DNA of 64,000 nt, from positions 835,497 to 899,496 of the forward strand of contig MFJV01000001.1 of NCBI GenBank assembly GCA_001780985.1, in the 5' to 3' direction. The notes under the pieces are model-generated. The model was given only the letters and a program-made list of their open reading frames with translations. It was not told the origin of the DNA and did no database searches. Both the position numbers and the translations under genes were made by a program. Shown here piece after piece: positions 1 to 64,000 of the stretch (the first letter of the stretch is position 1; each line of letters opens with the position of its first letter). This stretch comes from Candidatus Gottesmanbacteria bacterium RIFCSPLOWO2_01_FULL_43_11b. GTDB taxonomy: Bacteria > Patescibacteriota > Microgenomatia > UBA10105 > UBA927.

Positions 1-990
1 AGAAAAGAACTTTTTAAAAATAAAAAAGCACTCATTTTTCCGGCCCTTGTGGGACTTCTTACTATCGCACCACTCATTCGTGTGTTTTCAGATCCAAATA
101 CTTTAACGAGATTACGAGGAACAAGTTCACTTGCCGATGAGACAGCGTTACTTTCAAGAAGCGTTCAAAAACTGGAAGACGATGCTGTAAACGGCAATCC
201 GTGGGGAATAATCTTCGACAACCGTCGGATTGTTTGGGCAAAAACCCTTCTCGACGGATATTTATCTCATTTTTCATTCCGTTGGTTGTTTCTTACGGGT
301 GATAATCCACGTCATCACGCCCCTGGCATGGGACTTGTTTACTTATGGGAATTACCATTCCTGTTGTGGGGAATGTATACTTTATTCCATAATGGAGGAA
401 AGCAATCAAGATTTCTCTTCGGCTGGTTTCTCATTGCTCCGATCGCCGCATCTCCGACAACAGAGCTGCCGCACGCCATCCGCTCCATTGTGTTTCTCCC
501 AACTTTCCAGATTTTTACCGCCATCGGACTTATCGAGCTTAGTAAATATAGAAAAATAATTCTCCCACTATTGGCAATAATTGCATTAAATATTTTCTAT
601 TTCCTTCATCTATATTTCGGGCATACAAATAATGAAGTTTCGCAATTTTGGCAATATGGATATAAACAAGCGGTGGAGTATGCAAAGCTTCATAAGGGTG
701 AATACAAAAAAATAGTGGTATCCACGGAACTGGAGCAACCGCATATGTTTTTCCTTTACTTTTTGAAATACGATCCCGTTCTGTATCTTACAGAGGGGGG
801 GACCGCGTCCGGTGGATTTGAGGAAATGCGGAATAGATTTGATATATACGAATTTCGTCCGATTGACTGGGGGAATGAACTGCGGGACGGATCGACTCTT
901 TATATCGGAACTCCGTATGAAATTGCCGACAGTGTTATTTATACGATTTATTATCTAGATGGGGCAGAGGCCATTCGGATTGCGAAGTGA
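1..990 (+). CDS. GT-C-fold integral membrane glycosyltransferase (PMT_2/ArnT-like), 5' end outside window
   Basis: Frame is open from nt 1 (the ORF-track Met at 49 is internal). Aligns by eye with residues ~200-481 of the next gene, sharing RWLFTG..LxYxWELP..PHAxRS..GGTxSGGF..FEFRPIDW blocks. Tandem paralog. Confidence 0.75.
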   Translation, partial: RKELFKNKKALIFPALVGLLTIAPLIRVFSDPNTLTRLRGTSSLADETALLSRSVQKLEDDAVNGNPWGIIFDNRRIVWAKTLLDGYLSHFSFRWLFLTGDNPRHHAPGMGLVYLWELPFLLWGMYTLFHNGGKQSRFLFGWFLIAPIAASPTTELPHAIRSIVFLPTFQIFTAIGLIELSKYRKIILPLLAIIALNIFYFLHLYFGHTNNEVSQFWQYGYKQAVEYAKLHKGEYKKIVVSTELEQPHMFFLYFLKYDPVLYLTEGGTASGGFEEMRNRFDIYEFRPIDWGNELRDGSTLYIGTPYEIADSVIYTIYYLDGAEAIRIAK

Positions 991-2432
991 ATATGAACAA
1001 ATGGGTATTATTCGGAATACTTGCCCTTGCAACTGTACTGCGGTTCTTCTCATTGTCTTCCGTCCCTCCAAGCCCGTCCCTCGACGAGGTTTCCATTGGG
1101 TATAATGCGTATTCCATTCTTCAAACGGGCAAAGATGAGTACGGGACAGCGTTTCCCATACTCCTTCGAGCCTATGACGACTGGCGGCCAGCACTTTACG
1201 TATACCTTGTCGTTCCGTTCGTAAAGTTATTGGGTCTTACAGTATCGGCAGTACGATTACCATCCGTTATTGTCTCAGTTCTAACTGTATTTCTGACGTA
1301 CGAACTTTCAAAAAAACTACTTAAAAAAGAATCCATTGCTCTGTTTGCGGCGCTACTTTTGGCTATCTCGCCCTGGCATATTTATATTTCCCGACTTGGG
1401 CATGAAGTAAATCTGGGACTTTTTGCAGGCGTTGCGTCTAGCTATTTTTTCATTCAAAAAAAATTCTTTCTGTCTTCACTATTATTTTCACTTGCGCTCT
1501 ACAGTTACCAAAGTCAAAAAATAGTAATACCGGTTGTCTTTATAGGTCTCGCGGTACTCTACCGACGTAAAATTATTCTTCCGGCTATTATTATTCTTCT
1601 TTTACTTATCCCACTTATCAAGACGAGTTTTGCCGAAGGAGCGTTCATTCGATTTCAAGCGACCCGTGCCTCGAAAGAATTCTTTTGGCCAAACTACATA
1701 AGTCATTTTGATCCAAGGTGGCTATTTACCGGTACGGAACGTGAAAATCATAAAGTTCCCAATCTGGGACTCCTGTATTGGTGGGAACTACCGCTCATAC
1801 TCATGGGCCTGTTTAAATTAAATAAACAGAATAGATTTTTTATTCTTCTCTGGATTTTTGCCTCCCCGCTTCCTGCCGCAATTACCACACAGGCACCTCA
1901 TGCAATGCGTTCTTATACAATGCTGCCATATCTTCAAATCATTGGAGCAGTTGGTTTTGTCTCTTTTTGGGAAACGTTTAAGAAATATCGAGTGTTTGAA
2001 GTACTTATTATCGGTTTGAGTATATTTTATTTTGGAAAAAACTATTACGGAGTATTTCCAAAAACGCAATCGGATTCATTTCAGTATGCCCTCACCCAAT
2101 CTATAAACTACGTGACTTCTCACCAACAAAATTATGAGAGAGTCGTATTCTCAAACAAAGATAATCTTTATCAATCATATATGTTTTTTCTTTTTTACAG
2201 CCGATACGATCCACATCAATATCTTCTCTCGGGAGGCACGAAATCCGGCGGTTTTGCAGAAACACACACGTTGGGCAAATTTGAGTTTCGTCCGATTGAC
2301 TGGAAAAAAGATTTTTCATTGAAAAATACGCTTTTTATAGGAAATCCAAGTGATTTTCCTCCTGATGTACCTACACTTGATCAGTTTTCTTATCTAAACG
2401 GAGCTGTAGGAGTCGTTGCGGTTACACCATGA
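987..2432 (+). CDS. GT-C-fold integral membrane glycosyltransferase (PMT_2/ArnT-like), 481 aa
   Basis: About 11-12 hydrophobic helices. N-terminal loop with acidic DE..Y motif (LDEVSIGYNAY, DEYGTAFP). C-terminal soluble region conserved with the upstream paralog. ATGA-type overlap with the next gene. Confidence 0.8.
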   Translation: MNMNKWVLFGILALATVLRFFSLSSVPPSPSLDEVSIGYNAYSILQTGKDEYGTAFPILLRAYDDWRPALYVYLVVPFVKLLGLTVSAVRLPSVIVSVLTVFLTYELSKKLLKKESIALFAALLLAISPWHIYISRLGHEVNLGLFAGVASSYFFIQKKFFLSSLLFSLALYSYQSQKIVIPVVFIGLAVLYRRKIILPAIIILLLLIPLIKTSFAEGAFIRFQATRASKEFFWPNYISHFDPRWLFTGTERENHKVPNLGLLYWWELPLILMGLFKLNKQNRFFILLWIFASPLPAAITTQAPHAMRSYTMLPYLQIIGAVGFVSFWETFKKYRVFEVLIIGLSIFYFGKNYYGVFPKTQSDSFQYALTQSINYVTSHQQNYERVVFSNKDNLYQSYMFFLFYSRYDPHQYLLSGGTKSGGFAETHTLGKFEFRPIDWKKDFSLKNTLFIGNPSDFPPDVPTLDQFSYLNGAVGVVAVTP

Positions 2433-3862
2433 AAATATACCTTTTGTCAGCCATATTGCTCCTGGGATTTTTTTTGCGTGCGCAAGAGACCCTGTCCGGT
2501 AATTTTCTCTTTCTCAAAGACCAGGGAAGAGATATGCTTGCGGTCAAATCTGTAGTTGTTGATAAGAAACCTACTCTCATCGGGCCATACACAGGCTTTC
2601 GGGGTGTTTTTCAGGGGCCTTTGTATTATTACATTCTTGCATTACCATTTGTAGTCTCTGGTGGAGACCCTCGTGGAGTAATGTGGCTCATGTTGACAGC
2701 GAGCATGTTAAGTATTCCTTTCGGGTATATTGTCGGCAAAAAATTCTTTTCTGAAACAACGGGGTTATTTACCGCATTCCTGTTTGCAGTCTCTCCGGCG
2801 GCGGGGGCAGCGGCAACGTTTATCTGGAGTCCGTTTTTTATTTTTCCTCTTGTATCTGCCTGGCTTTATTTTTTCCTCGATTGGGTTAGTTCATTTTCAA
2901 AAAAATCATTTGTCATTATGGTATCGTTTCTCGGGCTTATGTTTCATTTTGAAACCGCGTTTGCCGCTCCGTTTACACTTACAATCTTTATTTTTTGTTA
3001 TTTCTTAGCACGAAAAAATAAGCATTCATTTTCCGTGTTACTCTTTTTTGTAATTCTTGCAATTTTTCTTTCTCCGCTTCTTCTTTTTGATTTTAGACAC
3101 GATCATATTACTCTCAAATCAATAGTAAGTATATTGCAGGGAATGGATGTGGGTTTAGGAGGAGGGGAACCATACGGTAAAATAGTCCGCGACCATATCA
3201 TTCGATTCATACTTAACCTTAAAGCAACATTCATTGCGCAGGATTTAGTAGCAAATATATTTTCATTCGTTTTTCTTTTTTCAGCCGTGTATTACATGAT
3301 TGCCGGGTTATCAAAAAAAATAAAATTACTTGTTCTCATTCCACTGGTTCTCTTTACCATATATTTATTTTTCCCATACCAAATTTGGGATTGGTACGTT
3401 ATCGGATTGTTCCCCATATATTTACTCCTGGGTGGGATATTTTTAACTAACAGACGTTGGCGACTCATGAGTATGATTGTTGTTATTGTACTTCTGAGCA
3501 ACGCCTATGTGAAACTCGATAATTTATACCGTTACCCGGATCATGGAGGAACGGCGAAACTTAGAGGTAAGCTTGAGGCAATAGATGCGGTGTATAAAGA
3601 TGCAAATGGTCAGCCTTTTTCACTGGAAGTTTTTACACCGGTAGTACTTACTGACGCTTACGATTATCTTATTTGGTGGTATGGATTAAAAAAATATTCG
3701 TACACCCCAGAAGATCGTGGAATGCTATATCTTTTGATTGAATCTGACCCATCAAAGCCTTGGAGTTATAATGGATGGATTGAGACTGAAATTAAAATAG
3801 GATCGACAATCGACACATATGAACTTCCGTCCGGATTTATAATACAAAAACGAAAGATATGA
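2429..3862 (+). CDS. GT-C-like polytopic membrane protein (putative glycosyltransferase), 477 aa
   Basis: Hydrophobic multi-TM N-terminal ~350 aa followed by soluble C-terminal ~120 aa. Start overlaps upstream stop (ATGA). Architecture resembles ArnT/GT83 but motifs are weaker. Confidence 0.65.
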   Translation: MKIYLLSAILLLGFFLRAQETLSGNFLFLKDQGRDMLAVKSVVVDKKPTLIGPYTGFRGVFQGPLYYYILALPFVVSGGDPRGVMWLMLTASMLSIPFGYIVGKKFFSETTGLFTAFLFAVSPAAGAAATFIWSPFFIFPLVSAWLYFFLDWVSSFSKKSFVIMVSFLGLMFHFETAFAAPFTLTIFIFCYFLARKNKHSFSVLLFFVILAIFLSPLLLFDFRHDHITLKSIVSILQGMDVGLGGGEPYGKIVRDHIIRFILNLKATFIAQDLVANIFSFVFLFSAVYYMIAGLSKKIKLLVLIPLVLFTIYLFFPYQIWDWYVIGLFPIYLLLGGIFLTNRRWRLMSMIVVIVLLSNAYVKLDNLYRYPDHGGTAKLRGKLEAIDAVYKDANGQPFSLEVFTPVVLTDAYDYLIWWYGLKKYSYTPEDRGMLYLLIESDPSKPWSYNGWIETEIKIGSTIDTYELPSGFIIQKRKI

Positions 3863-5421
3863 AACTACTTATTGTTTTTTCTCTTATTCCGCTTTTCAAT
3901 CTTCTTACACCGGGTCTTCCGGTTACGCACGACGGGCAGGACCATGTTGCACGCATTGCTAATTTTTACCTGTCACTCTCAGAAGGAAATATGATTCCCC
4001 GCTGGGCAGGTAATTTAAACTGGGGGTATGGACACCCGATCTTGATGTTCCTGTATCCGTTGCCTTCCTATGTTGCTTCATTATTCCATGCACTCGGACT
4101 ATCATTCGTTGATTCTACTAAATTGGTTTTTGCCCTTTTTTATGTAGCAAGTGTACTGGCAATGTATGTATGGCTGCGAAATCACTGGGGAAAGATTCCG
4201 GGATATGTTGGCGCAATACTCTATGGTTTTGCTCCTTATCGATTCGTTGATCTTTATGTACGTGGAGCAATCGGCGAACATGTTGCGTTTGTTTTTCTGC
4301 CGCTTGTTCTTTTGGGTTTATACAAAAAATCTCCAATGCTTACAACATTCAGCATGGCCGGGCTCATTCTTTCTCACAATGCAATAAGCCTCATGTTCCT
4401 GCCAATAATTGCACTTTATATTTTGTTTCTGAAACGAGATACTCGCTTCTTATTTTTTGCATGCTACTCCTTGTTCTTGGGTTTTCTTGTTTCTGCATTT
4501 TTTTGGATACCTGCGTTTTTTGAAGGGAAGTATACCCTACGCGACATTGTTACAAAAGGAGAATTTGGTGATCGATTTGTTCCTTGGAGTTGGTTTTTTT
4601 CATCACCCTGGAACTATGGCGGAGGAAATCAACTGACGAAAGAATTGGGGATAACGCAGTGGCTTTCAGTTGTCATTTCACTTTTTTACCTCCGGAAAAA
4701 ACAAAATCGAGTTGTAATTCTGACACTACTTCTGATATTATTTATTGTTCTGTTTCTTATGACCCAGGGATCAGCCTTTATTTGGAATACAATATCACTT
4801 TTGCAGAAATTTCAATTTCCCTGGAGACTTCTTAGCGTTGCAGTATTTATCACATCAGTTCTCGGCGCTTTCGCCGTTGCTCATCTTCCAAAAAAAACAA
4901 TGGTAGCCGTTATATTAGTTGGTTTATCCCTCATGACAACCTCCCACATGTGGAAAGCAAAGGAATACACAGTCAGACATGAATCATTTTACGCGGGTAT
5001 CTATGAGAGCACAACTGACACGGGTGAGAGCAGTCCAATCTGGTCTGTGCGCTTCATGGAAAAAAGAGCGGCCGCCGCTATAGAAGTTATCGAGGGAAAT
5101 GCGGATGTTGAATTGGGTCGACGTACGACAACGTCGAGAGAATATAAAGTAAAAACTCAAACACCGACGAGGCTTGCTGAAAACACGTTATATTTTCCCG
5201 GTTGGCGGATATCGGTAGACGGACAACCAGCTGGAATTGAATTTCAAGATCCGAACTACCGGGGACTCATGACATTTCAGCTCGAGAAGGGAGATCATCA
5301 GGTCATAATAGACTTTGTCGAAACAAAATTACGAATGGCAGCTAATTTAATTTCCGTTGCGGGACTTGTACTTCTTTTATTCTGGTATGCCAAAATTCGT
5401 TCTCATACTGCTTCTGTCTAG
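3859..5421 (+). CDS. PTPS-related/YfhO-like integral membrane protein (putative GT-C glycosyltransferase), 520 aa
   Basis: N-terminal THDGQDHVARI..RWAGNLNWGYGHP motif typical of the 6-pyruvoyl-tetrahydropterin-synthase-related membrane family (PF10131-like). C-terminal beta-rich YFPGWRISVDG region. Paralog at 12090..13592. Confidence 0.7.
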   Translation: MKLLIVFSLIPLFNLLTPGLPVTHDGQDHVARIANFYLSLSEGNMIPRWAGNLNWGYGHPILMFLYPLPSYVASLFHALGLSFVDSTKLVFALFYVASVLAMYVWLRNHWGKIPGYVGAILYGFAPYRFVDLYVRGAIGEHVAFVFLPLVLLGLYKKSPMLTTFSMAGLILSHNAISLMFLPIIALYILFLKRDTRFLFFACYSLFLGFLVSAFFWIPAFFEGKYTLRDIVTKGEFGDRFVPWSWFFSSPWNYGGGNQLTKELGITQWLSVVISLFYLRKKQNRVVILTLLLILFIVLFLMTQGSAFIWNTISLLQKFQFPWRLLSVAVFITSVLGAFAVAHLPKKTMVAVILVGLSLMTTSHMWKAKEYTVRHESFYAGIYESTTDTGESSPIWSVRFMEKRAAAAIEVIEGNADVELGRRTTTSREYKVKTQTPTRLAENTLYFPGWRISVDGQPAGIEFQDPNYRGLMTFQLEKGDHQVIIDFVETKLRMAANLISVAGLVLLLFWYAKIRSHTASV

Positions 5422-6617: not shown

Positions 6618-7379
6618 ATGAGTCTTTCGGTGGTTCTTGCGACATTTAATGAGGAAGATCGGATTGGGGAGTGTTTAACGTCAATTAAAGATATTGCTGA
6701 TGAGATTGTGGTTGTCGACGGGAGGTCGACGGATCGGACAGCGGAGATTGCAAAGAGTTTTGGGGCAAAAGTAAAAGTTGTTGAGAATGAGTATATTTTT
6801 CATATTAACAAACAAAAAGCAGTTGATTTAGCCACAAAAGATTGGGTCCTCCAGCTTGACGCGGACGAAATTGTATCAGTCGAACTGTTAAGTGAAATAA
6901 AAACGGCAATAAAAAGTAAGCAATATAATGGTTATTACATTCCCCGTAAAAACTATTTTCTAGGTCACCGGATGAAAAAAGGTGGACAATATCCCGATCC
7001 AGTCATTAGACTCTTTAAAAAAGGAAAGGGCAGATTTCCTCAAAAAAGCGTTCATGAACAAATTATGATAGACGGAAACGTAGGAACATTAAAAAATGAA
7101 CTTCTTCACTATCCATACCAAACTCTTTCAGAATACTGGGAGAAAGCTGTTCGCTACAGTCATTTAACCGCACGAGAAATGGCACAAGCCAACGCAAAAA
7201 AGAATTTAGTTACCGCACTCAATTATTTACTCCTTAAACCCACATTTACATTTCTTAATCTTTTTATCCGCCATCAAGGATTTGTTGACGGAATATACGG
7301 ATTTTTATTTGCGTACTTATCAGGGATTCAATTACAAATAGCGCTCTTTAAATATTTTTATGGAAAAAACCTCGACTAA
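6618..7379 (+). CDS. GT2 family glycosyltransferase
   Basis: VVLATFNEEDRIGECL...VVVDGRSTDRTAEIA...LQLDADE (DxD). Amphipathic, hydrophobic C-terminus. Confidence 0.85.
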   Translation: MSLSVVLATFNEEDRIGECLTSIKDIADEIVVVDGRSTDRTAEIAKSFGAKVKVVENEYIFHINKQKAVDLATKDWVLQLDADEIVSVELLSEIKTAIKSKQYNGYYIPRKNYFLGHRMKKGGQYPDPVIRLFKKGKGRFPQKSVHEQIMIDGNVGTLKNELLHYPYQTLSEYWEKAVRYSHLTAREMAQANAKKNLVTALNYLLLKPTFTFLNLFIRHQGFVDGIYGFLFAYLSGIQLQIALFKYFYGKNLD

Positions 7380-44995: not shown

Positions 44996-45002
44996 TAATT
45001 TT

Positions 45003-46064: not shown

Positions 46065-46068
46065 TCAT

Positions 46069-53128: not shown

Positions 53129-53192
53129 AAAGGATTCTTGTCGTGTTATACTACCATACCCTATCTGTGCCGAAAAGAAGAATGTTTGATCT

Positions 53193-55133: not shown

Positions 55134-55155
55134 ACACTACATAGTACCAAATAGT

Positions 55156-58148: not shown

Positions 58149-59312
58149 CTACTCGAATAGGCGAACGTAGATCTTTTTATAATCGTATCTATCCGCAAGA
58201 TTCTTCGCATTTATTTGGTACGAGTTGTAGCGGGAGAGAATTGTACCAATAGCACGGACAAATTCTTGTTTCCTGGTGTAGTTAAATACTATGCCGGCAC
58301 GGGAGCGACGGATTTCGCCGGCAAGACTTATGGGTGTGACGATGACCGGAATTCCCAGACTTAAGTAATCTTTAATTTTTGAGTTATCCGTATAGTAAGA
58401 CACATTGCTTTCTTCCGGTACGTAGGGCGCGATGCCTATATGCCATTGTTTCTGAATGTTTTTTACTTTTTGATAATCCGGAATATATCCGTAGAATTTG
58501 ACCGGAACCTGCGATTTTCCGGCTTTTTCCCGGAAGTATTGTTCATCAGGGCCGGAACCAATTATTTCACATGTAAGATTTGGGAAGAGCTCGTGTATCC
58601 TTTGAGCATTATCAAAGAAAATATCCAAACCCTGTGTTTTTTTGAGAACACCCAAAAAGCCAATAATTGGCGCAGTAAGATCGCGTTTTGATTTACGTAG
58701 CGGGTTGACGCTCGTTCCTATGGGTACTACCAAGGTGTCATGTTTGGGAAGCGCGTTGATTTTCATTCTCAGTTCCTGAAGTTTTAGGTGAAGAAACGCA
58801 ACAGTATCGGATTCTTGGGATGCTTTCTTGTCAAATTGCCAATAGTTCCACCGAACGAGACTGACAATTTTATTGGGATGCGAGGGAGGATAGTAATCCC
58901 AGACCCAAAAGATCGTTTTTTTTACAAAACGGTATTTTTTTAAAAGATTGCCCACCCAGGCGGTAAAAGCGTTGACTGTGAAATATATATCGTATGGTCC
59001 GTACTGATTTTTGAGTCGGATAACGTAATACCAAATTTGCAAAAGATTTAGAAACGACCGGATAGGAATAAGAAGGAAAACTGTCGATGGCGTTGTTCGA
59101 ATGGGCAAATCTAAGAGTGCGTATGTTTTTATTAATTTCCCGTTCTTATATATTGATAGTGTTCCAGGTTTATGTACTGCTCCCAAGTGGTGGAAGTTAA
59201 ATGAGAAAAGCAGAATGGTTTTAAACTTTGTCCGCAGATAATCAAGAATTCTCCCCGCATTTTCATAGGGGGAAAAATTAACGTAGATGATGGTTTTATA
59301 TTGTCTAATCAC
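58149..59312 (-). CDS. GT-B fold (GT4-like) glycosyltransferase, divergent
   Basis: C-terminal half IIGFLGVL..GLD..IIGSGPDEQYF..WHIGIAPYVPEESNVSYYTDNSKIKDYLSLGIPVIVTP resembles a degenerate Glycos_transf_1 domain. Confidence 0.5.
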   Translation of the reverse strand: MIRQYKTIIYVNFSPYENAGRILDYLRTKFKTILLFSFNFHHLGAVHKPGTLSIYKNGKLIKTYALLDLPIRTTPSTVFLLIPIRSFLNLLQIWYYVIRLKNQYGPYDIYFTVNAFTAWVGNLLKKYRFVKKTIFWVWDYYPPSHPNKIVSLVRWNYWQFDKKASQESDTVAFLHLKLQELRMKINALPKHDTLVVPIGTSVNPLRKSKRDLTAPIIGFLGVLKKTQGLDIFFDNAQRIHELFPNLTCEIIGSGPDEQYFREKAGKSQVPVKFYGYIPDYQKVKNIQKQWHIGIAPYVPEESNVSYYTDNSKIKDYLSLGIPVIVTPISLAGEIRRSRAGIVFNYTRKQEFVRAIGTILSRYNSYQINAKNLADRYDYKKIYVRLFE

Positions 59313-59316
59313 ACAA

Positions 59317-60306
59317 TTATTCTTTACGTAAAAGTTGAAAACGCAACCATTCGTAGATTATGAGCAACGCCATGACAAAACTTACCGGTATATGTAATAC
59401 CATAACAGAATCATGTTTTTTATGAACGAGAGAGATAGCTGAAATTGTCGGGCCAATAATACTTAAAGCGTAAGGGATAAAAAGTATTTTCCTCATACGC
59501 CTGGTTCTATTCATGAACCGTTCCCGATTGGCAAAACCCATCCCTTTGATAACAACAAAAAGATTATTTCGAATTCTCATGCGGTATTTTTGGATAAAAC
59601 TTTTCCACCCGCCGACATGATAGTGATAAAGAGGTGCATTCGGTACATAGGCAATTATGCCGCCTTCCATAATTAGTTTGATTCCCGAAAGAATGTCATC
59701 ACTCCAACCCATCGATTCACGCTTGAAAGTAGCGACTGTTCCCACCCCTTGGGATAAACCGAACAAAGGGTGATTTTGCGCAGTAAACTTATAGAGAAGA
59801 TAGTCTTTGGTGATTTTGAGTGGTTGATACAGACGCCTGTAATCTTTGGGGTTAGCGGCATTTTGGTAGATAAACCAAGTGAAGGGATCAGTAAAGAGAT
59901 GGCCGAGATATCTATTGAGTGGATGAGAGCCAGGCGGCGGCTCTGTTTGCGGCAGTAGCCCTTTTACTGTCTTGAGATTTTCAAGATATGGTTTGACCAT
60001 AGATGAAAGCCAATTTTGAGATCCCAGGACGTTATCAGCATCGGTAAAAAAGAGAAGTTCTCCTTTGGCAACCCCCGAGGCTCTTGCTTTTCCCGGTTCA
60101 TGCCACGTTTCCGGATTAGGAATTACCCTAGCTCCAAAAGATTCGGCTACTTTTTGAGTTTTATCCGTTGAACCACCGTCAGCTACAACAATTTCTATCT
60201 TGTTTTGCGGATAGCGTTGACTGCGAATTGCCGAAAGACAGCGCGGCAAAATATCGGCAGCATTGAGCGTCGGGATGATAAATGTTACCCGTGGTTTCTT
60301 ATTCAT
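59317..60306 (-). CDS. GT2 glycosyltransferase with C-terminal TM helices (polyprenol-phosphate sugar synthase-like)
   Basis: VTFIIPTLNAADIL..IVVADGGSTDKT..FFTDADN. Two C-terminal hydrophobic helices. Confidence 0.8.
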   Translation of the reverse strand: MNKKPRVTFIIPTLNAADILPRCLSAIRSQRYPQNKIEIVVADGGSTDKTQKVAESFGARVIPNPETWHEPGKARASGVAKGELLFFTDADNVLGSQNWLSSMVKPYLENLKTVKGLLPQTEPPPGSHPLNRYLGHLFTDPFTWFIYQNAANPKDYRRLYQPLKITKDYLLYKFTAQNHPLFGLSQGVGTVATFKRESMGWSDDILSGIKLIMEGGIIAYVPNAPLYHYHVGGWKSFIQKYRMRIRNNLFVVIKGMGFANRERFMNRTRRMRKILFIPYALSIIGPTISAISLVHKKHDSVMVLHIPVSFVMALLIIYEWLRFQLLRKE

Positions 60307-60346: not shown

Positions 60347-61528
60347 ATGATTCCGCTTATTAAATCTACGTTTCATCAAGAGAAAAGCACAAAAGAAAAA
60401 ATTAGTCAGTTTATTCGGAAAAACTCTCACCTTAGTATGGCGGACGAATGTGCTAAATTTGAAAAAAACTTTTCTAAATACCAGGAAAGAAAGCATTGTG
60501 TAATGGTCAACAGCGGTAGTTCAGCCAATCTGGCTATCATCCAAGCTCTCCTTAACCTGGGAAAAATTAAAAAAGGAGACATGGTAGGATTTTCAGCGCT
60601 GACCTGGTCAACGAACGTCATGCCGCTCATTCAGCTCGGGTTGACGCCAATTCCTATTGATATTGAACTATCGACTCTGAACGTTTCTTCACGAACATTA
60701 CTTGCTGCAATAAAAAAATATCCTCTGCGTATGCTTTTTTTGACCAATCTTCTGGGGTTTTGTGATGACATAGACGTTATTCAACGTGTCTGTCAAAAAA
60801 GAAACATACTCCTTATTGAAGATAACTGCGAATCACTGGGTACGATTTACAAGAAGAAAAAATTGGGAAATTATGGATACGCGAGCACGTTTTCATTTTA
60901 TGTGGGACACCACATGTCAACTATCGAAGGCGGGGCCATCTGTACTGACAACGAGAGTTTGGCGACTATGTTACGGATTGTGCGGGCTCATGGTTGGGAT
61001 CGAAATCTTTCTTTTGTAAAACAAAAAGAAATTAGAAACAAATTCAAAGTTAATTCAACTTTTTATTCCCGCTATACGTTCTATGAACTGGGGTATAACT
61101 TTAGACCTACGGAAATAAGCGGATTTATCGGTAATGTCCAATTGAGATATATAGAGAAAATTATTAGTCGGCGGCAGGCAAATTTTTTACGTATGGCAAT
61201 ACCAATTTATCAAAAAACTGACCGGTATTATCCGATTCGATTTGAGCACATCGAACGGTTGTCTAACTTCGCCGTCCCGGTAGTGTGCCGTTCTGCAGCG
61301 ATTCGGGACGAGTTGGTTAGGCGTTGCGAGAGGGTGGTAGAAATTCGGCCAATCGTCGGAGGGGATATAACAAATCAACCGTTCTACAAGAAATACATGG
61401 GACAGTATGCTCAGACTTTTAGACATTCAAACGCCCGAATGGTTCATGAACGAGGTCTTTATTTTGGTAACAACCCGCAGCTAACTAAAAAAGATATGGA
61501 TACGATAGTTAAAATTTTCACAAGGTGA
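60347..61528 (+). CDS. ColD/E1 (RfbH/DdhC)-like PLP/PMP-dependent NDP-4-keto-6-deoxyhexose 3-dehydratase (DegT fold, His in place of Schiff-base Lys)
   Basis: DegT-family layout. Active-site block TFSFYVGHHMSTIEGGAICT has His-His where the three other DegT genes in this window have a Lys (ANK / ATK / PGK). Start MIPLIK at 60347. Confidence 0.7.
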   Translation: MIPLIKSTFHQEKSTKEKISQFIRKNSHLSMADECAKFEKNFSKYQERKHCVMVNSGSSANLAIIQALLNLGKIKKGDMVGFSALTWSTNVMPLIQLGLTPIPIDIELSTLNVSSRTLLAAIKKYPLRMLFLTNLLGFCDDIDVIQRVCQKRNILLIEDNCESLGTIYKKKKLGNYGYASTFSFYVGHHMSTIEGGAICTDNESLATMLRIVRAHGWDRNLSFVKQKEIRNKFKVNSTFYSRYTFYELGYNFRPTEISGFIGNVQLRYIEKIISRRQANFLRMAIPIYQKTDRYYPIRFEHIERLSNFAVPVVCRSAAIRDELVRRCERVVEIRPIVGGDITNQPFYKKYMGQYAQTFRHSNARMVHERGLYFGNNPQLTKKDMDTIVKIFTR

Positions 61529-61532
61529 CGCT

Positions 61533-62513
61533 ATGCGAAATTTTTGGAAACGACAAAAGGTGCTGGTTACCGGCGGCGGGGGGTTTATCGGAAGCCATCT
61601 TGTAGAGAAACTGGTGGAAAAAGGTGCACGGGTGACGGTCGTTGATGTGAACAGGAAACAGACGGAAGAAAATCTGTCCGGAGTGACGAGTAAAGTACGA
61701 TTGATAGCAGGGGATTGTCGGAAGAAACAGGTCATAGAAACAGCTTGTTCCGGGCAAGATATTGTCATGAATTTGGCAGCCAGAGTTTCCGGGATTGAGT
61801 TTAACCGACAGCATCAAGCAACGATGTTTCGGGATAACCTTCAGATTGCCACCGCAGTTATTGAAGCGGCCAGGATAAACCATGTCAAACGATTTTTAGT
61901 AGTATCGTCTGCGTGCGTATATTCACTACAGTGCTCAATTCCCACACCAGAAAGTGAAGGATTTATGGGAGAACCCGAAACAACAAATGAAGGGTATGGA
62001 TGGTCAAAACGCATGGCAGAAAAACTTGGAATGTATTACGCGCAGGAATTCGATATGAAGGTGGCTATTGTTCGCCCCTACAACAGTTATGGACCGCGTG
62101 ATCATTTTGACCCGAAGATCTCGCATGTCATCCCGGCACTTATCAAACGAATATTTGATGGTGAGAATCCAATTGTGGTCTGGGGGAGCGGAAGGCAAAC
62201 CCGGGCGTTTCTCTATGTTGATGATCTTGTCCGGGGTCTGATGCTAGCGGTCGAGCGTTATCCACAAGCCGATCCGGTGAATTTGGGTACAAATGAGGAA
62301 GTTACCATTGCCGAGCTTGTCAACAAAATAAAACTACTCATTGATCCTAAACGAAAAGTAAGATTTGACACCACAAAACCCGATGGGAGTCCCAGGCGTA
62401 ATTGCGATAACTCAAAAGCCATACAGCATTTGCATTTTAAATCCCGTATACCACTCTCCGTAGGGCTAAGACACACCATTTTTTGGTACCGAAAATACGT
62501 ATCACCCAAATAA
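61533..62513 (+). CDS. NAD(P)-dependent sugar nucleotide epimerase/reductase (extended SDR)
   Basis: VLVTGGGGFIGSHL and YGWSKRMAEK (YxxxK). 326 aa. Directly downstream of the 3-dehydratase-like gene. Confidence 0.75.
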   Translation: MRNFWKRQKVLVTGGGGFIGSHLVEKLVEKGARVTVVDVNRKQTEENLSGVTSKVRLIAGDCRKKQVIETACSGQDIVMNLAARVSGIEFNRQHQATMFRDNLQIATAVIEAARINHVKRFLVVSSACVYSLQCSIPTPESEGFMGEPETTNEGYGWSKRMAEKLGMYYAQEFDMKVAIVRPYNSYGPRDHFDPKISHVIPALIKRIFDGENPIVVWGSGRQTRAFLYVDDLVRGLMLAVERYPQADPVNLGTNEEVTIAELVNKIKLLIDPKRKVRFDTTKPDGSPRRNCDNSKAIQHLHFKSRIPLSVGLRHTIFWYRKYVSPK

Positions 62514-62538
62514 AACGGTCACCTTCCTCTGCTATAAT

Positions 62539-63270
62539 TTGTCTATGAAAAAAATAGTTGAATGGATACTTACTGCGAAGGTGTTAACTTTTCCCAGAAG
62601 ATATTTAGTAAGAATTATCGCACGTGCCATGTCGGTTAGCAGAATAGGAGCGTTATATGTTCTTAACCTCCAGGATCCGGAAACTGCTAAAGCAGTTAAT
62701 TTAATAGCACACATCAAAAGAGAAACAACGATGCTTTTGAGTGACTTTTGTGCCTACCAACTCTATACGACAGTGAAAAAAACGAGAAAAGTTAAAGGCG
62801 ATATTGCTGAAGTTGGTGTCTATAAAGGAGGGTCAGCAAAGCTGATTTGTGAAGCTTCGCCCCACAAGAAGATTTACTTATTCGACACGTTTAAGGGATT
62901 ACCCGAATTATCAATAAACGATAAATCTTCTCATTTTAAAAAAGGTGACTATGCTACCTCGTTTGAAATTGTTAAAACTTATTTGAAAAAGTATAGGAAC
63001 GTTATTTTTTGTAAAGGGTTTTTTCCTGCTACGGCCGACTTTGTGAAGAAAAACAAATTCTCTTTTGTACATATTGATGTGGACCTTTATGAAGCAACAT
63101 TTAATTGTTTGAAATTTTTTTATCCCAGGATGAATAAGGGAGGGGTAATTCTGGGTCATGATTATCCCGGAGCACCGGGGGTCAAAAAGGCGTTCGATGA
63201 TTTTTTTAGGGATAAACCGCAAACAATCTTTGAGATACCCGGAACGGGACAATGTTTAATCTCGAAATGA
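62539..63270 (+). CDS. TylF/MycF-family sugar O-methyltransferase
   Basis: GDIAEVGVYKGGSA..LFDTFKGLPE..HIDVDLYEAT..GGVILGHDY matches the macrocin O-methyltransferase family pattern. Confidence 0.8.
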   Translation: MSMKKIVEWILTAKVLTFPRRYLVRIIARAMSVSRIGALYVLNLQDPETAKAVNLIAHIKRETTMLLSDFCAYQLYTTVKKTRKVKGDIAEVGVYKGGSAKLICEASPHKKIYLFDTFKGLPELSINDKSSHFKKGDYATSFEIVKTYLKKYRNVIFCKGFFPATADFVKKNKFSFVHIDVDLYEATFNCLKFFYPRMNKGGVILGHDYPGAPGVKKAFDDFFRDKPQTIFEIPGTGQCLISK

Positions 63271-64000
63271 AACTTAAATACTTTGCGATTATTGTTCTTT
63301 TGTTTTCCTTTTTCGGATTAACACTGACAAGCAGCGTATCAGAATCCCCGGTTACGGACGAACCCGGCCACATTAGCACCGGATTGCTCTACTTAAAATA
63401 TGGTGATCTCACATTCAACTCCGGCTCTCCGCTTCTTGCAAACATTCTTTCCGCTCTTCCGCTTTATACAATGTCGTCTCTCACAATACCCATGGACGTT
63501 CAATATTTTCAAAATGGCTATTTACACTCCTTTGCTAAAGATTTTTTCATGATGAATAAAGCTAGGGTAGATCAAATACTACTTTTGTCACGATTGCCCA
63601 TAATGCTTGCCGGCATGCTTCTTGGACTCGTCATTTTCATCTGGACCAAAAATTGGTACGGATTTTTCCCGGCATTACTTGCGCTTGGTTTGTATGTTGG
63701 AGAACCTAGTTTTCTTGCTCATGCACATTACGCAACAACGGATGTTCTCTTTGCCTTGATGTTTACCACAACAATCTTCTTTTTAGAGCGATACCTTTCT
63801 CAAAAACGCAATTATTATTTGTTTTTATTTGCCGCTTTATTTGCTTTAAGCCAGCTTGTAAAGATCACTGCGATTTTTCTTTACCCTCTTTGTTTTCTTA
63901 TCTTTGCCATGTACTCAAGGAAAGCCGACGTTCTTGAAAAAATTTTCGAGGCAACACGGAGGGTTTTTGTGCTGGCCGTCTTTTCTCTGTTAGCCATCAA
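63267..64000 (+). CDS. GT-C (PMT_2/ArnT-like) glycosyltransferase, 3' end outside window
   Basis: Not in the supplied ORF track because no stop occurs before the window end. My own translation from the ATG at 63267 (ATGA overlap) gives MKLKYFAIIVLLFSF..TDEPGHISTGLLYL..GEPSFLAHAHYATTDVLF with no stop through nt 64000. Confidence 0.7.
   Translation, partial: MKLKYFAIIVLLFSFFGLTLTSSVSESPVTDEPGHISTGLLYLKYGDLTFNSGSPLLANILSALPLYTMSSLTIPMDVQYFQNGYLHSFAKDFFMMNKARVDQILLLSRLPIMLAGMLLGLVIFIWTKNWYGFFPALLALGLYVGEPSFLAHAHYATTDVLFALMFTTTIFFLERYLSQKRNYYLFLFAALFALSQLVKITAIFLYPLCFLIFAMYSRKADVLEKIFEATRRVFVLAVFSLLAI

What the first reader, a model, noticed from the sequence alone, without database searches (positions are those of the whole stretch)
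1..64000. 64-kb glycosylation super-locus with about 18 GT-C membrane glycosyltransferases and no initiating phosphoglycosyltransferase
Nearly every gene in the window is glycan-related. The dominant class is large polytopic GT-C-fold enzymes (ArnT/PMT_2-like, PIG-V-like, PTPS-related, plus several unassigned), not the GT-A/GT-B plus Wzy/Wzz set of a classical O-antigen or capsule locus. No WbaP/WecA-type initiating phosphoglycosyltransferase, polymerase or chain-length regulator is present. Three TM-anchored GtrB/DPM1-like GT2s (38175..39080, 49832..50563, 59317..60306) could supply polyprenol-P-monosaccharide donors, and a Wzx-like flippase is present (21189..22412). The inferred picture is stepwise extracytoplasmic glycosylation of a protein or lipid acceptor from lipid-linked monosaccharides, like protein O-mannosylation or arabinogalactan assembly, but on a scale and in a lineage (CPR-like) where no such system is characterised.
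Basis: partly seen in the sequence, partly recalled or inferred. Interest (0 to 1): 0.85.

Follow-up and report, generated by a model that had tools for sequence, protein, structure and literature searches.

The report
Giant membrane glycosyltransferase array in Gottesmanbacteria
A tiny-genome candidate-phylum bacterium (Gottesmanbacteria) devotes more than 80 kb, about 8% of its roughly 1 Mb genome, to sugar-chain genes, including at least 25 membrane enzymes of the kind that add sugars outside the cell, which points to an elaborate and unstudied cell-surface glycan.

Summary
The window (Candidatus Gottesmanbacteria RIFCSPLOWO2_01_FULL_43, CPR/Microgenomates) is 97.7% coding with about 60 genes, nearly all glycan-related.

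- **Missing classical parts:** no phosphoglycosyltransferase, Wzy or Wzz was found in the window or in 9-10 kb either side.
- **True size:** the locus is larger than the window, at least 81.5 kb with at least 25 GT-C genes.
- **Two parts:** window 1-16285 is a gene-order-conserved core array shared with other Microgenomates. The rest is a variable set of deoxy/amino/methyl-sugar modules.
- **Conserved pairing:** a GT-C + DPM1-like GT2 + methyltransferase triad recurs in three other genomes.

- The window also holds 9 GT2 and 6 GT4 enzymes.
- Of the three 'TM-anchored GtrB-like' GT2s, only 38175-39080 is clearly ArnC/GtrB-like.
- 49832-50563 lacks a C-terminal anchor, and 59317-60306 is not specifically DPM1-like.

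The mechanism (polyprenyl-phosphate-sugar donors, extracytoplasmic stepwise transfer) is inferred. The acceptor is unknown. This is a new variant of a known kind.

The parts
1..990 (+). GT-C: C-terminal 329 aa of a 524-aa PMT_2 protein (starts 584 bp before the window)
   Evidence: Frame is open from base 1. The full gene in L003 8430-10004 carries PMT/PMT_2. Paralog of 987-2432 (38% identity, 3e-106).
987..2432 (+). GT-C, PMT_2 (GT39-like)
   Evidence: PF13231 31.5 bits against a gathering score of 26.1. 'LDE' after TM1.
2429..3862 (+). GT-C, weak PMT_2
   Evidence: PF13231 27.4 bits against 26.1. hhalign 82-93% to the PMT_2 paralog group and to u04. 'KDQGRD' after TM1.
3859..5421 (+). GT-C, PTPS_related/YfhO type
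   Evidence: PF10131 and PF09586, 38.5 bits each. 'THDG' after TM1.
5387..6607 (+). GT-C, PMT_2
   Evidence: PF13231 38 bits. Called gene is 406 aa. 'NWDE' motif.
6630..7379 (+). GT2 glycosyltransferase (conserved member of the core array)
   Evidence: PF00535 75.6 bits. Syntenic in L008-L011.
7360..8073 (+). Class I SAM methyltransferase
   Evidence: Methyltransf_11 87 bits.
8070..8516 (+). DUF5667 protein with an N-terminal hydrophobic segment; conserved partner in the array; function unknown
   Evidence: PF18915 34 bits. Same position in L008-L014.
8509..9597 (+). GT-C, short divergent PMT_2-like (362 aa)
   Evidence: No Pfam hit itself. Many of its 178 homologs carry PF13231. D69 is invariant in the family.
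9594..10646 (+). GT-C, GT87 / MptA-MptB family
   Evidence: PF09594 24.9 bits (gathering score 25), TIGR03459 43.5 bits, PF26314 on record.
10624..12093 (+). GT-C fold, large family without a Pfam model
12090..13592 (+). GT-C, PTPS_related/YfhO-type paralog
   Evidence: BLASTP 4.5e-63 to 3859-5421. Weak PF10131 at 15.8 bits. 'THDG' motif.
13549..14568 (+). GT4 (GT-B) cytoplasmic glycosyltransferase of the core array
   Evidence: Glycos_transf_1 119.6 bits. Syntenic in relatives.
14549..15589 (+). GT-C, PIG-V/Gpi18-like (GT76/GT87-like)
   Evidence: No Pfam hit itself. Homologs carry PF04188, PF09594 or PF13231. D49 invariant, 'NFDG'.
15599..16285 (+). DPM1/AglJ/ArnC-like GT2, soluble: candidate polyprenyl-phosphate sugar synthase paired with the PIG-V-like GT-C
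   Evidence: AglJ model 119 bits, PpgS 61, Dol-P-hexose transferase 60. PDB ArnC 5.6e-15 and DPMS 1.5e-14 over the whole domain. Same neighbour order in L008 and L009.
16282..17082 (+). GT2
   Evidence: PF00535 90.8 bits. PpgS-like, 49.7 bits, near full length.
17106..18200 (+). GT4
   Evidence: Glycos_transf_1 120 bits.
18197..18967 (+). SAM methyltransferase
   Evidence: Methyltransf_11 52 bits.
18967..20238 (+). GT-C, PMT_2 + PMT
   Evidence: PF13231 61.4 bits and PF02366 34.4 bits. 'SDE' motif.
20245..21189 (+). SDR NDP-sugar 4,6-dehydratase/epimerase-like
   Evidence: GDP_Man_Dehyd 204 bits. dTDP-glucose dehydratase model 156 bits, below its cut-off.
21189..22412 (+). MOP-family (Wzx-like) flippase
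   Evidence: Polysacc_synt 27.2 bits (gathering score 28.2), MatE 21.6 bits. Syntenic homologs hit Polysacc_synt_3. No PDB sequence match.
22419..23603 (+). GT4
   Evidence: Glycos_transf_1 151 bits.
23600..25822 (+). GT-C, PMT_2 + PMT, 740 aa
   Evidence: 55.8 and 43.4 bits. 'PDEP' motif. Paralog of 55871-58138 (8e-115).
25811..27050 (-). Two genes of unclear role: P-loop kinase-like (25811-26323) and NTP_transf_5-like (26310-27050)
   Evidence: Weak Thymidylate_kin and NTP_transf_5 hits.
27007..28053 (-). GT1/GT4-type glycosyltransferase
   Evidence: Glycos_transf_1 49 bits.
28101..30137 (+). GT-C, PMT_2, 678 aa (first of three paralogs)
   Evidence: 35.9 bits. 35% identical to the other two. 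'NWDEP' motif.
30141..30677 (-). Second DUF5667 protein
   Evidence: PF18915 23 bits, below the gathering score.
30769..32754 (+). GT-C, PMT_2, 661 aa
   Evidence: 47.6 bits. 49% identical to 32751-34745.
32751..34745 (+). GT-C, PMT_2, 664 aa
   Evidence: 40.8 bits.
34696..36695 (-). SAM methyltransferase (34696-35466) and GT4 (35463-36695)
36664..38224 (-). DegT-type sugar aminotransferase (36664-37782), plus a small protein of up to 151 aa (37769-38224) that looks cupin-like by eye
   Evidence: Aminotransferase: DegT 417 bits; LegC-family 370 bits against a cut-off of 420. Small ORF: no significant Pfam hit; cupin-like His motif read from the sequence.
38175..39080 (-). ArnC/GtrB-type polyprenyl-phosphate glycosyltransferase (GT2 with a C-terminal membrane anchor)
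   Evidence: PDB ArnC 9hwj 4.5e-46 and GtrB 5ekp 1.3e-33 over nearly the full length. NCBIfam ArnC model 190 bits, below its cut-off of 529. TM at residues 303-321.
39131..41200 (.). SAM methyltransferase (39131-39973, minus strand) and UDP-glucose/GDP-mannose dehydrogenase (39995-41200, plus strand)
41197..43337 (+). GT2-methyltransferase fusion (41197-42648) and GT2 (42633-43337)
43371..46971 (+). Sugar-nucleotide tailoring block: 127-aa cupin, NDP-hexose C-methyltransferase (43751-44995), SDR dehydratase/epimerase (45003-46064), GFO/IDH/MocA oxidoreductase (46069-46971)
   Evidence: The same block lies near g47-family genes in L096 (62% identical C-methyltransferase).
46936..48980 (-). RmlD-like reductase (46936-47835) and PseC/ArnB-like aminotransferase (47835-48980)
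48943..49899 (-). Methyltransf_23 methyltransferase: third member of the conserved triad
   Evidence: 51-60% identical orthologs adjacent in L096-L098.
49832..50563 (-). DPM1/AglJ-like GT2 (243 aa, no C-terminal anchor): candidate lipid-phosphate sugar synthase for the adjacent GT-C
   Evidence: AglJ 63 bits, Dol-P-hexose transferase 47 bits. DPMS 5mlz 4e-5. 55-71% identical orthologs always next to the g47-family gene.
50565..52028 (-). GT-C fold, small family without a Pfam model
52025..55884 (.). DegT aminotransferase (52025-53128, minus), NeuD/PglD/VioB N-acetyltransferase (53193-53828, plus), methyltransferase (53800-54414, minus), GT2 (54411-55133, minus), methyltransferase (55219-55884, plus)
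   Evidence: The acetyltransferase scores 193 bits against a cut-off of 160.8.
55901..58138 (+). GT-C, PMT_2 + PMT, 745 aa
   Evidence: 50.2 and 32.8 bits. 'ADEP' motif.
58149..60306 (-). GT1/GT4 (58149-59312) and a GT2 with two C-terminal TM helices (59317-60306); the GT2 is not specifically DPM1/GtrB-like
60347..63270 (+). RfbH-like PLP enzyme (60347-61528), Fcl-like SDR (61533-62513), TylF-type O-methyltransferase (62545-63270)
63252..64000 (+). GT-C, PMT_2: N-terminal 249 aa of a 577-aa protein that runs past the window end
   Evidence: 39.6 bits. Full gene at L006 11720-13453. 'TDEP' motif.

Best explanation
This is part of a cell-envelope glycan assembly region of at least 81.5 kb in a Gottesmanbacteria (CPR/Microgenomates) genome. 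It most likely works as a multi-module, lipid-carrier-dependent, outside-the-membrane glycosylation line.

Inferred steps:
1. Cytoplasmic enzymes make unusual nucleotide sugars. These are 4,6-dehydratase/epimerase-type SDRs, four DegT/RfbH-type PLP enzymes, a C-methyltransferase, O-methyltransferases, a NeuD/PglD-type N-acetyltransferase and a UDP-glucose dehydrogenase.
2. DPM1/AglJ/ArnC/GtrB-type GT2 enzymes load single sugars onto polyprenyl phosphate. The firm candidates are 15599-16285, 38175-39080 and 49832-50563. Possible further ones are 16282-17082, 42633-43337 and 54411-55133.
3. The lipid-linked sugars reach the outer face of the membrane. The MOP flippase at 21189-22412 probably carries a lipid-linked oligosaccharide built by the GT4/GT2 enzymes. 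The flippase for monosaccharide carriers is not identified.
4. The 18 GT-C enzymes in the window (at least 25 in the whole region) each transfer one kind of sugar to a growing acceptor outside the membrane.

The first 16 kb (PMT_2 x4, PTPS/YfhO-like x2, GT87/MptA-B, PIG-V-like, a new GT-C family, one GT4, a DPM1-like GT2 and DUF5667) is a gene-order-conserved core shared with other Microgenomates. I take it to build a conserved backbone, on a lipid or wall acceptor that needs no phosphoglycosyltransferase, as in mycobacterial PIM/lipomannan. The remaining roughly 48 kb holds variable decoration modules.

Shown: folds, families, gene order, conserved pairing and lineage. Inferred: donors, order of action, acceptor and product.
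For: - GT-C identity of all 18 polytopic proteins: Pfam, paralogy, homolog annotation and two AF2 models with exclusively GT-C top hits.
- Family-conserved acidic residue early in the protein: D48 in the g11 family, D49 in the g14 family, D69 in the g09 family.
- Lipid-phosphate sugar synthase candidates: 38175-39080 aligns full length to ArnC and GtrB structures. 15599-16285 aligns to ArnC and DPMS, and to AglJ at 119 bits.
- Conserved GT-C + GT2 + methyltransferase triad (50565-52028, 49832-50563, 48943-49899) in three other genomes, at 51-71% identity.
- Conserved PIG-V-like + 228-aa GT2 pair, and conserved whole core order, in L008, L009, L010, L011, L014, L067 and L070.
- No PGT, Wzy or Wzz in the window, its flanks, or the syntenic arrays.
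- The general mechanism (cytoplasmic GT2 makes C55-P-sugar, which is flipped, then a GT-C transfers the sugar outside) is established for CsbB/GtcA/YfhO and related systems (PMC5836110, PMC8035078).
Against: - There is no experimental data for any gene here.
- No GtrA/ArnEF-type small flippase was found. Every gap was checked and coding density is 97.7%.
- Only the N-acetyltransferase among the sugar enzymes reaches an NCBIfam equivalog or subfamily cut-off, so no sugar can be named.
- Several GT-C calls are marginal by sequence: 2429-3862 scores 27.4 against 26.1, 9594-10646 scores 24.9 against 25, and 12075-13592 scores 15.8.
- In the g47 family the early Asp is present in only 34 of 47 aligned sequences.
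- Fifteen cytoplasmic GT2/GT4 enzymes plus a Wzx-like flippase suggest that part of the product is a conventional lipid-linked oligosaccharide. That would need an initiating enzyme, which I could not look for in the rest of the genome.
- The large PMT_2 proteins have no detectable sequence similarity to any solved GT-C, so donor and acceptor cannot be transferred from known enzymes.
Confidence: 0.55

Rival explanations
1. Mainly a protein O-glycosylation system. The PMT/PMT_2 (GT39-like) enzymes glycosylate Ser/Thr of secreted, S-layer or pilus proteins, as actinobacterial Pmt and eukaryotic PMTs do. Other GT-Cs then extend the protein-linked glycan outside the cell.
For: - 12 of the 18 GT-Cs hit PMT_2 or PMT with DE-type first-loop motifs.
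- 38175-39080 and 54411-55133 also resemble PgfS, the GT2 of the Streptococcus mutans protein-glycosylation system (136 and 74 bits, below cut-off).
- Small secreted DUF5667 proteins recur inside these arrays and could be acceptors or accessory factors.
Against: - PMT_2 (PF13231) also covers ArnT-type lipid and glycan transferases, so the hit does not imply a protein acceptor.
- No MIR domain or other peptide-binding domain was detected.
- No obvious Ser/Thr-rich target protein is encoded in the window.
- GT87/MptA-B and PIG-V-type enzymes act on lipid-linked glycans in the known cases.
Confidence: 0.15
2. A conventional Wzx-dependent surface polysaccharide or secondary wall polymer locus whose initiating PGT, and polymerase or LCP ligase, lie elsewhere in the genome. 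The GT-Cs would only add side-branch decorations, as GtrC, GacL and YfhO do.
For: - Nine GT2, six GT4, a MOP flippase and many sugar-nucleotide enzymes look like an ordinary repeat-unit toolkit.
- In most Microgenomates a paralog of the g11-family GT-C sits beside MurJ, DUF2298, an LCP ligase and FemAB, which points to wall polymers.
Against: - No PGT, Wzy, Wzz or ABC exporter was found in 81.5 kb, or in four syntenic arrays from other genomes.
- GT-C genes outnumber the cytoplasmic GTs and occupy 42% of the window. That is far more than known decoration systems, which have one to three GT-Cs.
- The core array is almost pure GT-C.
Confidence: 0.2
3. Many of the GT-C paralogs are not active glycosyltransferases. 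They could be degenerate duplicates, scaffolds or membrane proteins with another role, so the array overstates glycosylation capacity.
For: - Paralogs are old and divergent, at 30-49% identity.
- Some score near or below Pfam thresholds.
- The early Asp is not universal in the g47 family.
- The 9-TM upstream protein u05 could not be placed at all.
Against: - Reading frames are intact and tightly packed.
- Families are conserved across many genomes, with invariant polar and acidic residues.
- Gene order is conserved.
- A roughly 1-Mb reduced genome is unlikely to keep more than 25 kb of dead membrane genes.
Confidence: 0.04

Closest known systems
Mycobacterial/corynebacterial envelope GT-C network (PimE, MptA/MptB/MptC of GT87, EmbA-C, AftA-D, Pmt) fed by Ppm1 polyprenyl-phosphate-mannose and decaprenyl-phosphate-arabinose
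   Same: - Many GT-C enzymes act stepwise outside the membrane on a lipid- or wall-anchored glycan.
- A GT87/MptA-B family member (9594-10646), a DPM1/Ppm1-like GT2 and GT4 enzymes sit together.
- The lipid-anchored branch (PIM/LM) needs no PGT.
- AftA, AftB, AftD, EmbA and PimE are among the structural neighbours of the two modelled proteins.
   Different: - The phylum and envelope differ.
- The mycobacterial genes are spread around a 4-Mb genome (my own knowledge), whereas here at least 25 sit in 81.5 kb of a roughly 1-Mb genome.
- No decaprenyl-phosphoribose pathway genes were seen.
- The sugars here appear to be amino, deoxy and methylated hexoses.
- Sequence similarity to the mycobacterial enzymes is at profile or fold level only.
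Three-component transmembrane glycosylation systems (GtrA/B/C; ArnC/ArnEF/ArnT; CsbB/GtcA/YfhO; GacI/J/K/L) - PMC5836110, PMC8035078
   Same: - A cytoplasmic DPM1/GtrB/ArnC-type GT2 is paired with a GT-C.
- YfhO/PTPS_related-type GT-Cs are present.
- 38175-39080 is a full-length ArnC/GtrB homolog.
- A conserved GT2 + GT-C adjacency recurs.
   Different: - No GtrA/GtcA/ArnEF-type small flippase is present.
- Known systems have one to three GT-Cs that decorate a polymer made by another pathway. Here the GT-Cs dominate, and a conserved core array has no visible separate backbone pathway.
Eukaryotic ER-lumen ALG3/9/12/6/8/10 and GPI PIG-M/V/B/Z mannosyltransferases; archaeal Agl pathway (AglJ/AglD Dol-P-hexose synthases, AglS, AglB)
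   Same: - A series of GT-C enzymes extends a lipid-linked glycan one sugar at a time from Dol-P-sugar donors.
- A PIG-V-like member is present (14549-15589).
- The best NCBIfam models for 15599-16285 and 49832-50563 are AglJ and Dol-P-hexose transferase.
- ALG12, ALG9, ALG3 and GPI-MT-I are among the top structural neighbours.
   Different: - This is a bacterial CPR lineage.
- No recognisable STT3/PglB oligosaccharyltransferase was found by sequence. STT3B is only a fold neighbour.
- All scores are far below equivalog cut-offs.
Wzx/Wzy-dependent O-antigen or capsule loci
   Same: - Sugar-nucleotide tailoring genes.
- GT2 and GT4 enzymes.
- A MOP (Wzx-like) flippase.
   Different: - No initiating PGT, no Wzy and no Wzz/PCP.
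- 30% of the genes are GT-C, a class that is absent or rare in such loci.

Membership tests
GT-C glycosyltransferase superfamily | Polytopic membrane protein (about 8-13 TM helices) | tested here: met
   Hydropathy gives 5-14 hydrophobic segments in all 18 candidates. The AF2 models are all-helical membrane bundles with a small C-terminal alpha/beta domain.
GT-C glycosyltransferase superfamily | Conserved acidic residue or motif in the first extracytoplasmic loop after TM1 | tested here: met
   DE, HDG, DQG, FDG or SDGF motifs in the first ~110 residues of 17 of the 18; in 8509-9597 the candidate D69 lies ~40 residues past TM1. Invariant D48 (g11 family), D49 (g14 family) and D69 (g09 family). 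Only 34 of 47 sequences have it in the g47 family. Loop topology was not tested experimentally.
GT-C glycosyltransferase superfamily | Fold similarity to solved GT-C structures | tested here: met
GT-C glycosyltransferase superfamily | Use of a polyprenyl-(di)phosphate-linked sugar donor | not testable with these tools
   Needs biochemistry. Indirect support comes from adjacent DPM1/ArnC-like GT2 genes.
GT39 protein O-mannosyltransferases (PMT/Pmt) | PMT (PF02366) / PMT_2 (PF13231) transmembrane domain with a DE motif | tested here: met
   12 proteins reach the gathering score. Five also hit PF02366.
GT39 protein O-mannosyltransferases (PMT/Pmt) | Protein Ser/Thr acceptor (and, in eukaryotic PMTs, a lumenal MIR domain) | tested here: not met
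   No MIR or other extra Pfam domain appears in any of them. The acceptor itself is not testable here. PF13231 also covers ArnT-like non-protein transferases, so membership in GT39 proper is not claimed.
GT87 / MptA-MptB polyprenol-P-mannose mannosyltransferases | Match to the GT87 and MptA_B family models | tested here: inconclusive
   9594-10646 scores 24.9 bits on PF09594 against a gathering score of 25. PF26314 is on record at E 1e-5 or better. TIGR03459 scores 43.5 bits against a cut-off of 439. This is family-level resemblance, not an ortholog.
PIG-V/Gpi18 (Mannosyl_trans2, PF04188) | Match to PF04188 | tested here: inconclusive
   14549-15589 itself has no hit. About a third of its listed close homologs (44-66% identical) do; others hit GT87 or PMT_2.
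Three-component (GtrB-type GT2 / flippase / GT-C) glycosylation system | DPM1/GtrB/ArnC-type polyprenyl-phosphate glycosyltransferase | tested here: met
   38175-39080 aligns full length to ArnC and GtrB. 15599-16285 and 49832-50563 are DPM1/AglJ-like at domain level.
Three-component (GtrB-type GT2 / flippase / GT-C) glycosylation system | Small GtrA/GtcA/ArnEF-type flippase | tested here: not met
   No PF04138 or EamA/SMR hit. The only intergenic gap holds a cupin, and coding density is 97.7%.
Three-component (GtrB-type GT2 / flippase / GT-C) glycosylation system | GT-C partner encoded next to the GT2 | tested here: met
   The pairs 14549-15589/15599-16285 and 50565-52028/49832-50563 are adjacent here and in other genomes.
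Wzx/Wzy-dependent O-antigen or capsule locus | Initiating phosphoglycosyltransferase (WbaP/PglC Bac_transf or WecA/MraY-type) | tested here: not met
   No hit in any of the 60 window ORFs at E 0.01 or better, nor in the called genes of the flanks. The rest of the genome was not searched.
Wzx/Wzy-dependent O-antigen or capsule locus | Wzy polymerase and Wzz/PCP chain-length regulator | tested here: not met
   Every polytopic protein is accounted for as GT-C or MOP flippase. No Wzy_C, O-antigen polymerase or Wzz hits.
Wzx/Wzy-dependent O-antigen or capsule locus | Wzx (MOP) flippase | tested here: inconclusive
   21189-22412 scores 27.2 bits on Polysacc_synt against a gathering score of 28.2, E 3e-6. 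Orthologs hit Polysacc_synt_3.
Arn (L-Ara4N lipid A modification) pathway | Full set ArnA (formyltransferase + decarboxylase), ArnB, ArnC, ArnD, ArnE/F, ArnT | tested here: not met
   Present: an ArnC-like GT2 (190 bits against a cut-off of 529), ArnB-like aminotransferases (250-266 bits against 631), Ugd and SDRs. Absent: formyltransferase, deformylase and ArnE/F. It works like ArnC/ArnT but is not the Arn pathway.

The most novel reading that the evidence does not exclude
Microgenomates (CPR) build their main cell-envelope glycopolymer almost entirely outside the membrane. A conserved assembly line of a dozen or more GT-C enzymes would be fed by polyprenyl-phosphate monosaccharides, started on a scavenged membrane lipid or on a polyprenyl monophosphate rather than by a phosphoglycosyltransferase. 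That would be a bacterial counterpart of the ER-lumen ALG/GPI pathways and of mycobacterial lipomannan/arabinogalactan assembly. It would include at least two GT-C families with no described relatives (the g11 family, 1478 cluster representatives, and the g47 family). Lineage-variable decoration modules would add rare amino/methyl deoxy sugars that shape host or phage recognition in these episymbionts.
Probability: 0.3. Interest if true: 0.85.

Novelty: new variant of a known kind. Interest (0 to 1): 0.62.

Why it matters
CPR/Patescibacteria are a large share of bacterial diversity. They live attached to other microbes and cannot make their own lipids, yet almost nothing is known about their surface chemistry.

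What stands out here:
- A roughly 1-Mb genome spends about 8% of its DNA on one glycan region with at least 25 GT-C enzymes. From my own knowledge this is a higher local density than in mycobacteria, the classic GT-C-rich bacteria. It implies that the product is central to the organism's biology, for example envelope integrity, host attachment or phage evasion.
- The conserved 16-kb core array gives a concrete, testable target for comparative genomics and heterologous reconstitution across Microgenomates.
- The two Pfam-less GT-C families add new branches to a superfamily of high structural and medical interest.
- The conserved GT-C/GT2/methyltransferase triad is a compact module that could be expressed and assayed directly.

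Tried and rejected
- **Hidden Wzy or O-antigen ligase among the 346-370-aa polytopic proteins:** rejected. Their homologs carry PMT_2, PIG-V or GT87.
- **Hidden GtrA-type flippase or PGT in small ORFs or gaps:** rejected. The only gap, 43338-43750, encodes a cupin.
- **Direct sequence searches of PDB** with g47 and g11 family profiles and with g21, g23 and g29: nothing useful.
- **Pfam at E up to 10, and NCBIfam,** on the unassigned membrane proteins: nothing.
- **Single-sequence hhalign among window proteins:** linked only some paralogs. Family-profile hhalign linked d03/d04 to the g47 family but did not link the g11, g14 or g47 families to PMT_2.
- **Walking further along the source scaffold:** not possible, because look-ups accept only window proteins. 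The one metagenome scan found a 60%-identical relative, not the source contig.
- **AFDB fold search:** unavailable.
- **Foreign island or misassembly:** rejected, given even GC and recovery in independent assemblies.
- **RNA genes:** Rfam and tRNA scans were empty.
- **Naming specific sugars:** abandoned. Only the N-acetyltransferase passes an NCBIfam cut-off.

Full report
**Source and integrity.**
The window is 64 kb at about 40% GC with no compositional break. It has no tRNA or Rfam hits. It is 97.7% coding, with many 4-bp start/stop overlaps. Exact-protein look-ups place it on ENA scaffold ANAN16-1_SAMN03842437 scaffold_85 (180 kb), on independent Logan contigs, and on a 1,020,299-bp NCBI contig. 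The 100%-identical NCBI proteins are named Candidatus Gottesmanbacteria bacterium RIFCSPLOWO2_01_FULL_43. The CPR assignment is therefore right, and the sequence is not an assembly artefact.

**Inventory.**
All 59 ORFs of at least 150 aa, plus the two end-truncated genes, were scanned against Pfam. Selected sets were scanned against NCBIfam.
- 18 polytopic GT-C candidates
- 1 MOP flippase
- 9 GT2, one of them fused to a methyltransferase
- 6 GT4/GT1
- 4 DegT/RfbH-type PLP enzymes
- 4 SDR dehydratase/epimerase/reductases
- 1 UDP-glucose dehydrogenase
- 1 GFO/IDH/MocA oxidoreductase
- 1 NeuD/PglD-type N-acetyltransferase
- 1 NDP-hexose C-methyltransferase
- 1 TylF O-methyltransferase
- 7 further class I methyltransferases
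- 1 small cupin (43371-43754) and 1 small ORF that looks cupin-like by eye but has no significant hit (37769-38224)
- 2 DUF5667 proteins
- 2 genes of unclear role (P-loop kinase-like and NTP_transf_5-like)

The claim that nearly every gene is glycan-related is correct.

**Are the polytopic proteins GT-C?**
- Twelve reach Pfam gathering scores for PMT_2, PMT, PTPS_related or YfhO.
- 9594-10646 is GT87/MptA-B-like: 24.9 bits against 25, PF26314 on record, and a partial TIGR03459 match.
- 12075-13592 is a clear paralog of the PTPS_related protein at 3859-5421 (4.5e-63).
- The four proteins with no family hit were followed up individually:
  - 8485-9597 has 178 homologs, many carrying PMT_2.
  - 14549-15589 has more than 1600 homologs carrying PIG-V/Mannosyl_trans2, GT87 or PMT_2.
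  - 10609-12093 has 1478 representatives at 50% clustering. Its AF2 model (pLDDT 94.1) has a top 21 that is all GT-C.
- Seventeen of the 18 show an acidic motif in the first ~110 residues where GT-C enzymes have their catalytic first loop; in 8509-9597 the candidate D69 lies about 40 residues past the first hydrophobic segment. The residue is invariant in three of the four families I aligned.
- GT-C genes cover 42% of the window.

**What is absent.**
No WbaP/PglC or WecA-type phosphoglycosyltransferase, Wzy, O-antigen ligase, Wzz/PCP or ABC exporter was detected. This holds for the window, for the genes called in the 9 kb upstream and 8.5 kb downstream, and for the syntenic arrays of other genomes. 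No GtrA/ArnEF-type small flippase exists either. The single intergenic gap encodes a cupin. I could not scan the rest of the genome.

**The GT2 enzymes.**
- 38175-39080 aligns over its full length to ArnC and GtrB structures (4.5e-46 and 1.3e-33) and has a C-terminal TM helix.
It is the next best polyprenyl-phosphate transferase candidate: AglJ 119 bits, with ArnC and DPMS aligned across the catalytic domain.
- 49832-50563 is AglJ/Dol-P-hexose-transferase-like at lower scores and lacks a C-terminal anchor.
- 59317-60306 has two C-terminal TM helices but only generic GT2 similarity.
- 16282-17082, 42633-43337 and 54411-55133 show weak, near-full-length PpgS/AglJ-type matches.

**The locus is bigger than the window and has two parts.**
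- Upstream genes add PMT, YfhO, a PTPS-like paralog, a PMT_2-like 453-aa protein, an unplaced 9-TM protein and another PMT.
- Downstream genes add the rest of the PMT_2 gene and two 557-566-aa paralogs related to the g47 family (hhalign 97%, 8.6e-11), then more GT2, GT1, methyltransferase and epimerase genes.
- In total that is at least 25 GT-C genes in 81.5 kb, about 8% of the 1.02-Mb contig.
- Homologs of 8485-9597 in two other contigs (L008 and L009) sit in the same order as window genes 1-16285: PMT_2 x3-4, PTPS-like, GT2, (MT), DUF5667, g09, MptA_B, g11, PTPS/YfhO-like, GT4, PIG-V-like, 228-aa GT2, flippase.
- A genome-collection scan with the g11 family found 271 loci, mostly in Levy-, Shapiro-, Woese-, Davies- and Blackburnbacteria and other Microgenomates. 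The closest ones, including a complete 763-kb Levyibacteriota chromosome, show the same array.
- By contrast, the modules of window 16-64 kb appear rearranged in relatives.

**Conserved pairing.**
The g47-family GT-C is followed by a 243-aa GT2 (55-71% identical to 49832-50563) and a roughly 298-aa Methyltransf_23 enzyme (51-60% identical to 48943-49899) in three other genomes. DegT, RmlD-like, C-methyltransferase or PglD-like genes lie nearby. Together with the conserved PIG-V-like/228-aa GT2 pair, this is the strongest in-silico support that GT2 enzymes supply lipid-linked donors to specific GT-C partners. That is the established logic of the CsbB/GtcA/YfhO, Gtr and Arn systems (PMC5836110, PMC8035078).

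**Mechanism.**
I commit to a multi-module line: polyprenyl-phosphate-sugar donors feeding extracytoplasmic GT-C transferases.
- The conserved core probably builds a backbone on an acceptor that needs no PGT. This could be a membrane lipid, as in mycobacterial PIM/lipomannan, or a polyprenyl monophosphate, as in the haloarchaeal AglJ route.
- The variable modules decorate that backbone with amino, deoxy and methylated sugars.
- The 15 cytoplasmic GTs plus the MOP flippase suggest that a lipid-linked oligosaccharide is also made inside the cell and exported.
- The donor sugars cannot be named. Only the N-acetyltransferase passes an NCBIfam cut-off.
- The acceptor (lipid, wall or protein) is open. 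Rivals are set out separately.

**Comparison and novelty.**
The parts are known kinds: GT39-like, GT87, PIG-V-like, YfhO-like, ArnC/GtrB-like and DPM1-like. The unusual features are:
- their number and density;
- the lack of classical initiation and polymerisation genes;
- a conserved Microgenomates-wide core array;
- two GT-C families with no Pfam model and no sequence link to solved structures.

Literature searches found only passing remarks on multiple Dol-P-mannosyltransferase copies in Peregrinibacteria (PMC4736985) and on GT87 and PIM genes in a Saccharibacterium (PMC6031116). Nothing was found on GT-C arrays in Gottesmanbacteria or Microgenomates. I rate it a new variant of a known kind, interest 0.62.

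Noticed in passing
L054 3776-18296 (Levybacteria RIFCSPHIGHO2_01_FULL_37_17); same pattern in most of L015-L089: Most Microgenomates genomes carry a second g11-family GT-C paralog (33-38% identical) in a different, highly conserved neighbourhood: MurJ, an Ig-like surface protein, an FAD amine-oxidase-like enzyme, the g11-like GT-C, a 711-aa DUF2298 membrane protein, an LCP (LytR_cpsA_psr) ligase, UvrD and FemAB. This suggests the family has a housekeeping role in wall-polymer assembly.
   Followed up: partly
window 8070-8516 and 30141-30677; L008, L009, L011 and L097: Small DUF5667 proteins with an N-terminal hydrophobic segment recur inside GT-C arrays in several genomes, always just upstream of the g09/g10-type genes in the core array. 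Their role (acceptor, scaffold or chain-length factor) is unknown.
   Followed up: no
L006 14487-17857 (window coordinates 66019-69389, beyond the window end): Two adjacent 557-566-aa paralogs with no Pfam hit and a 'FFQQDEW' motif after TM1 are related to the g47 GT-C family (hhalign 97%, E 8.6e-11). That family is therefore present three times in this locus.
   Followed up: partly
L003 5621-6805 (window coordinates -3393 to -2209): A 394-aa protein with about 9 TM segments, conserved at the start of the core array in L008 and L009, could not be linked to any family by Pfam record, BLAST or hhalign. It may be another GT-C or something else.
   Followed up: partly
L008 13822-15060, L009 13869-15113, L011 11590-12834: Relatives have an extra 412-415-aa gene without a Pfam hit between the g11-like and g12-like genes. 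It is missing from this window. L011-L014 also have a 375-aa unknown before the GT4.
   Followed up: no
window 41197-42648: A single ORF fuses an N-terminal GT2 domain, a hydrophobic middle region and a C-terminal class I SAM methyltransferase domain. This suggests coupled glycosyl transfer and sugar methylation.
   Followed up: no
window 25811-27050 (minus strand): A P-loop kinase-like gene (weak thymidylate-kinase hit) and an NTP_transf_5-like gene sit on the opposite strand between two GT-C blocks. Their link to the glycan pathway is unclear.
   Followed up: no
L010, L012-L014, L024, L034, L057, L070 and others: Many genome records titled 'uncultured Gammaproteobacteria bacterium' (TPA co-assembly bins) carry Microgenomates-type arrays with 46-49% identical g11 homologs. 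The titles look like placeholder or wrong taxonomy.
   Followed up: no
window 43371-46971 and L096 3341-11070: A cupin, C-methyltransferase, SDR and GFO/IDH/MocA block (a branched-chain or C-methyl sugar pathway?) is conserved near g47-family genes in another genome, with a 62% identical C-methyltransferase.
   Followed up: partly
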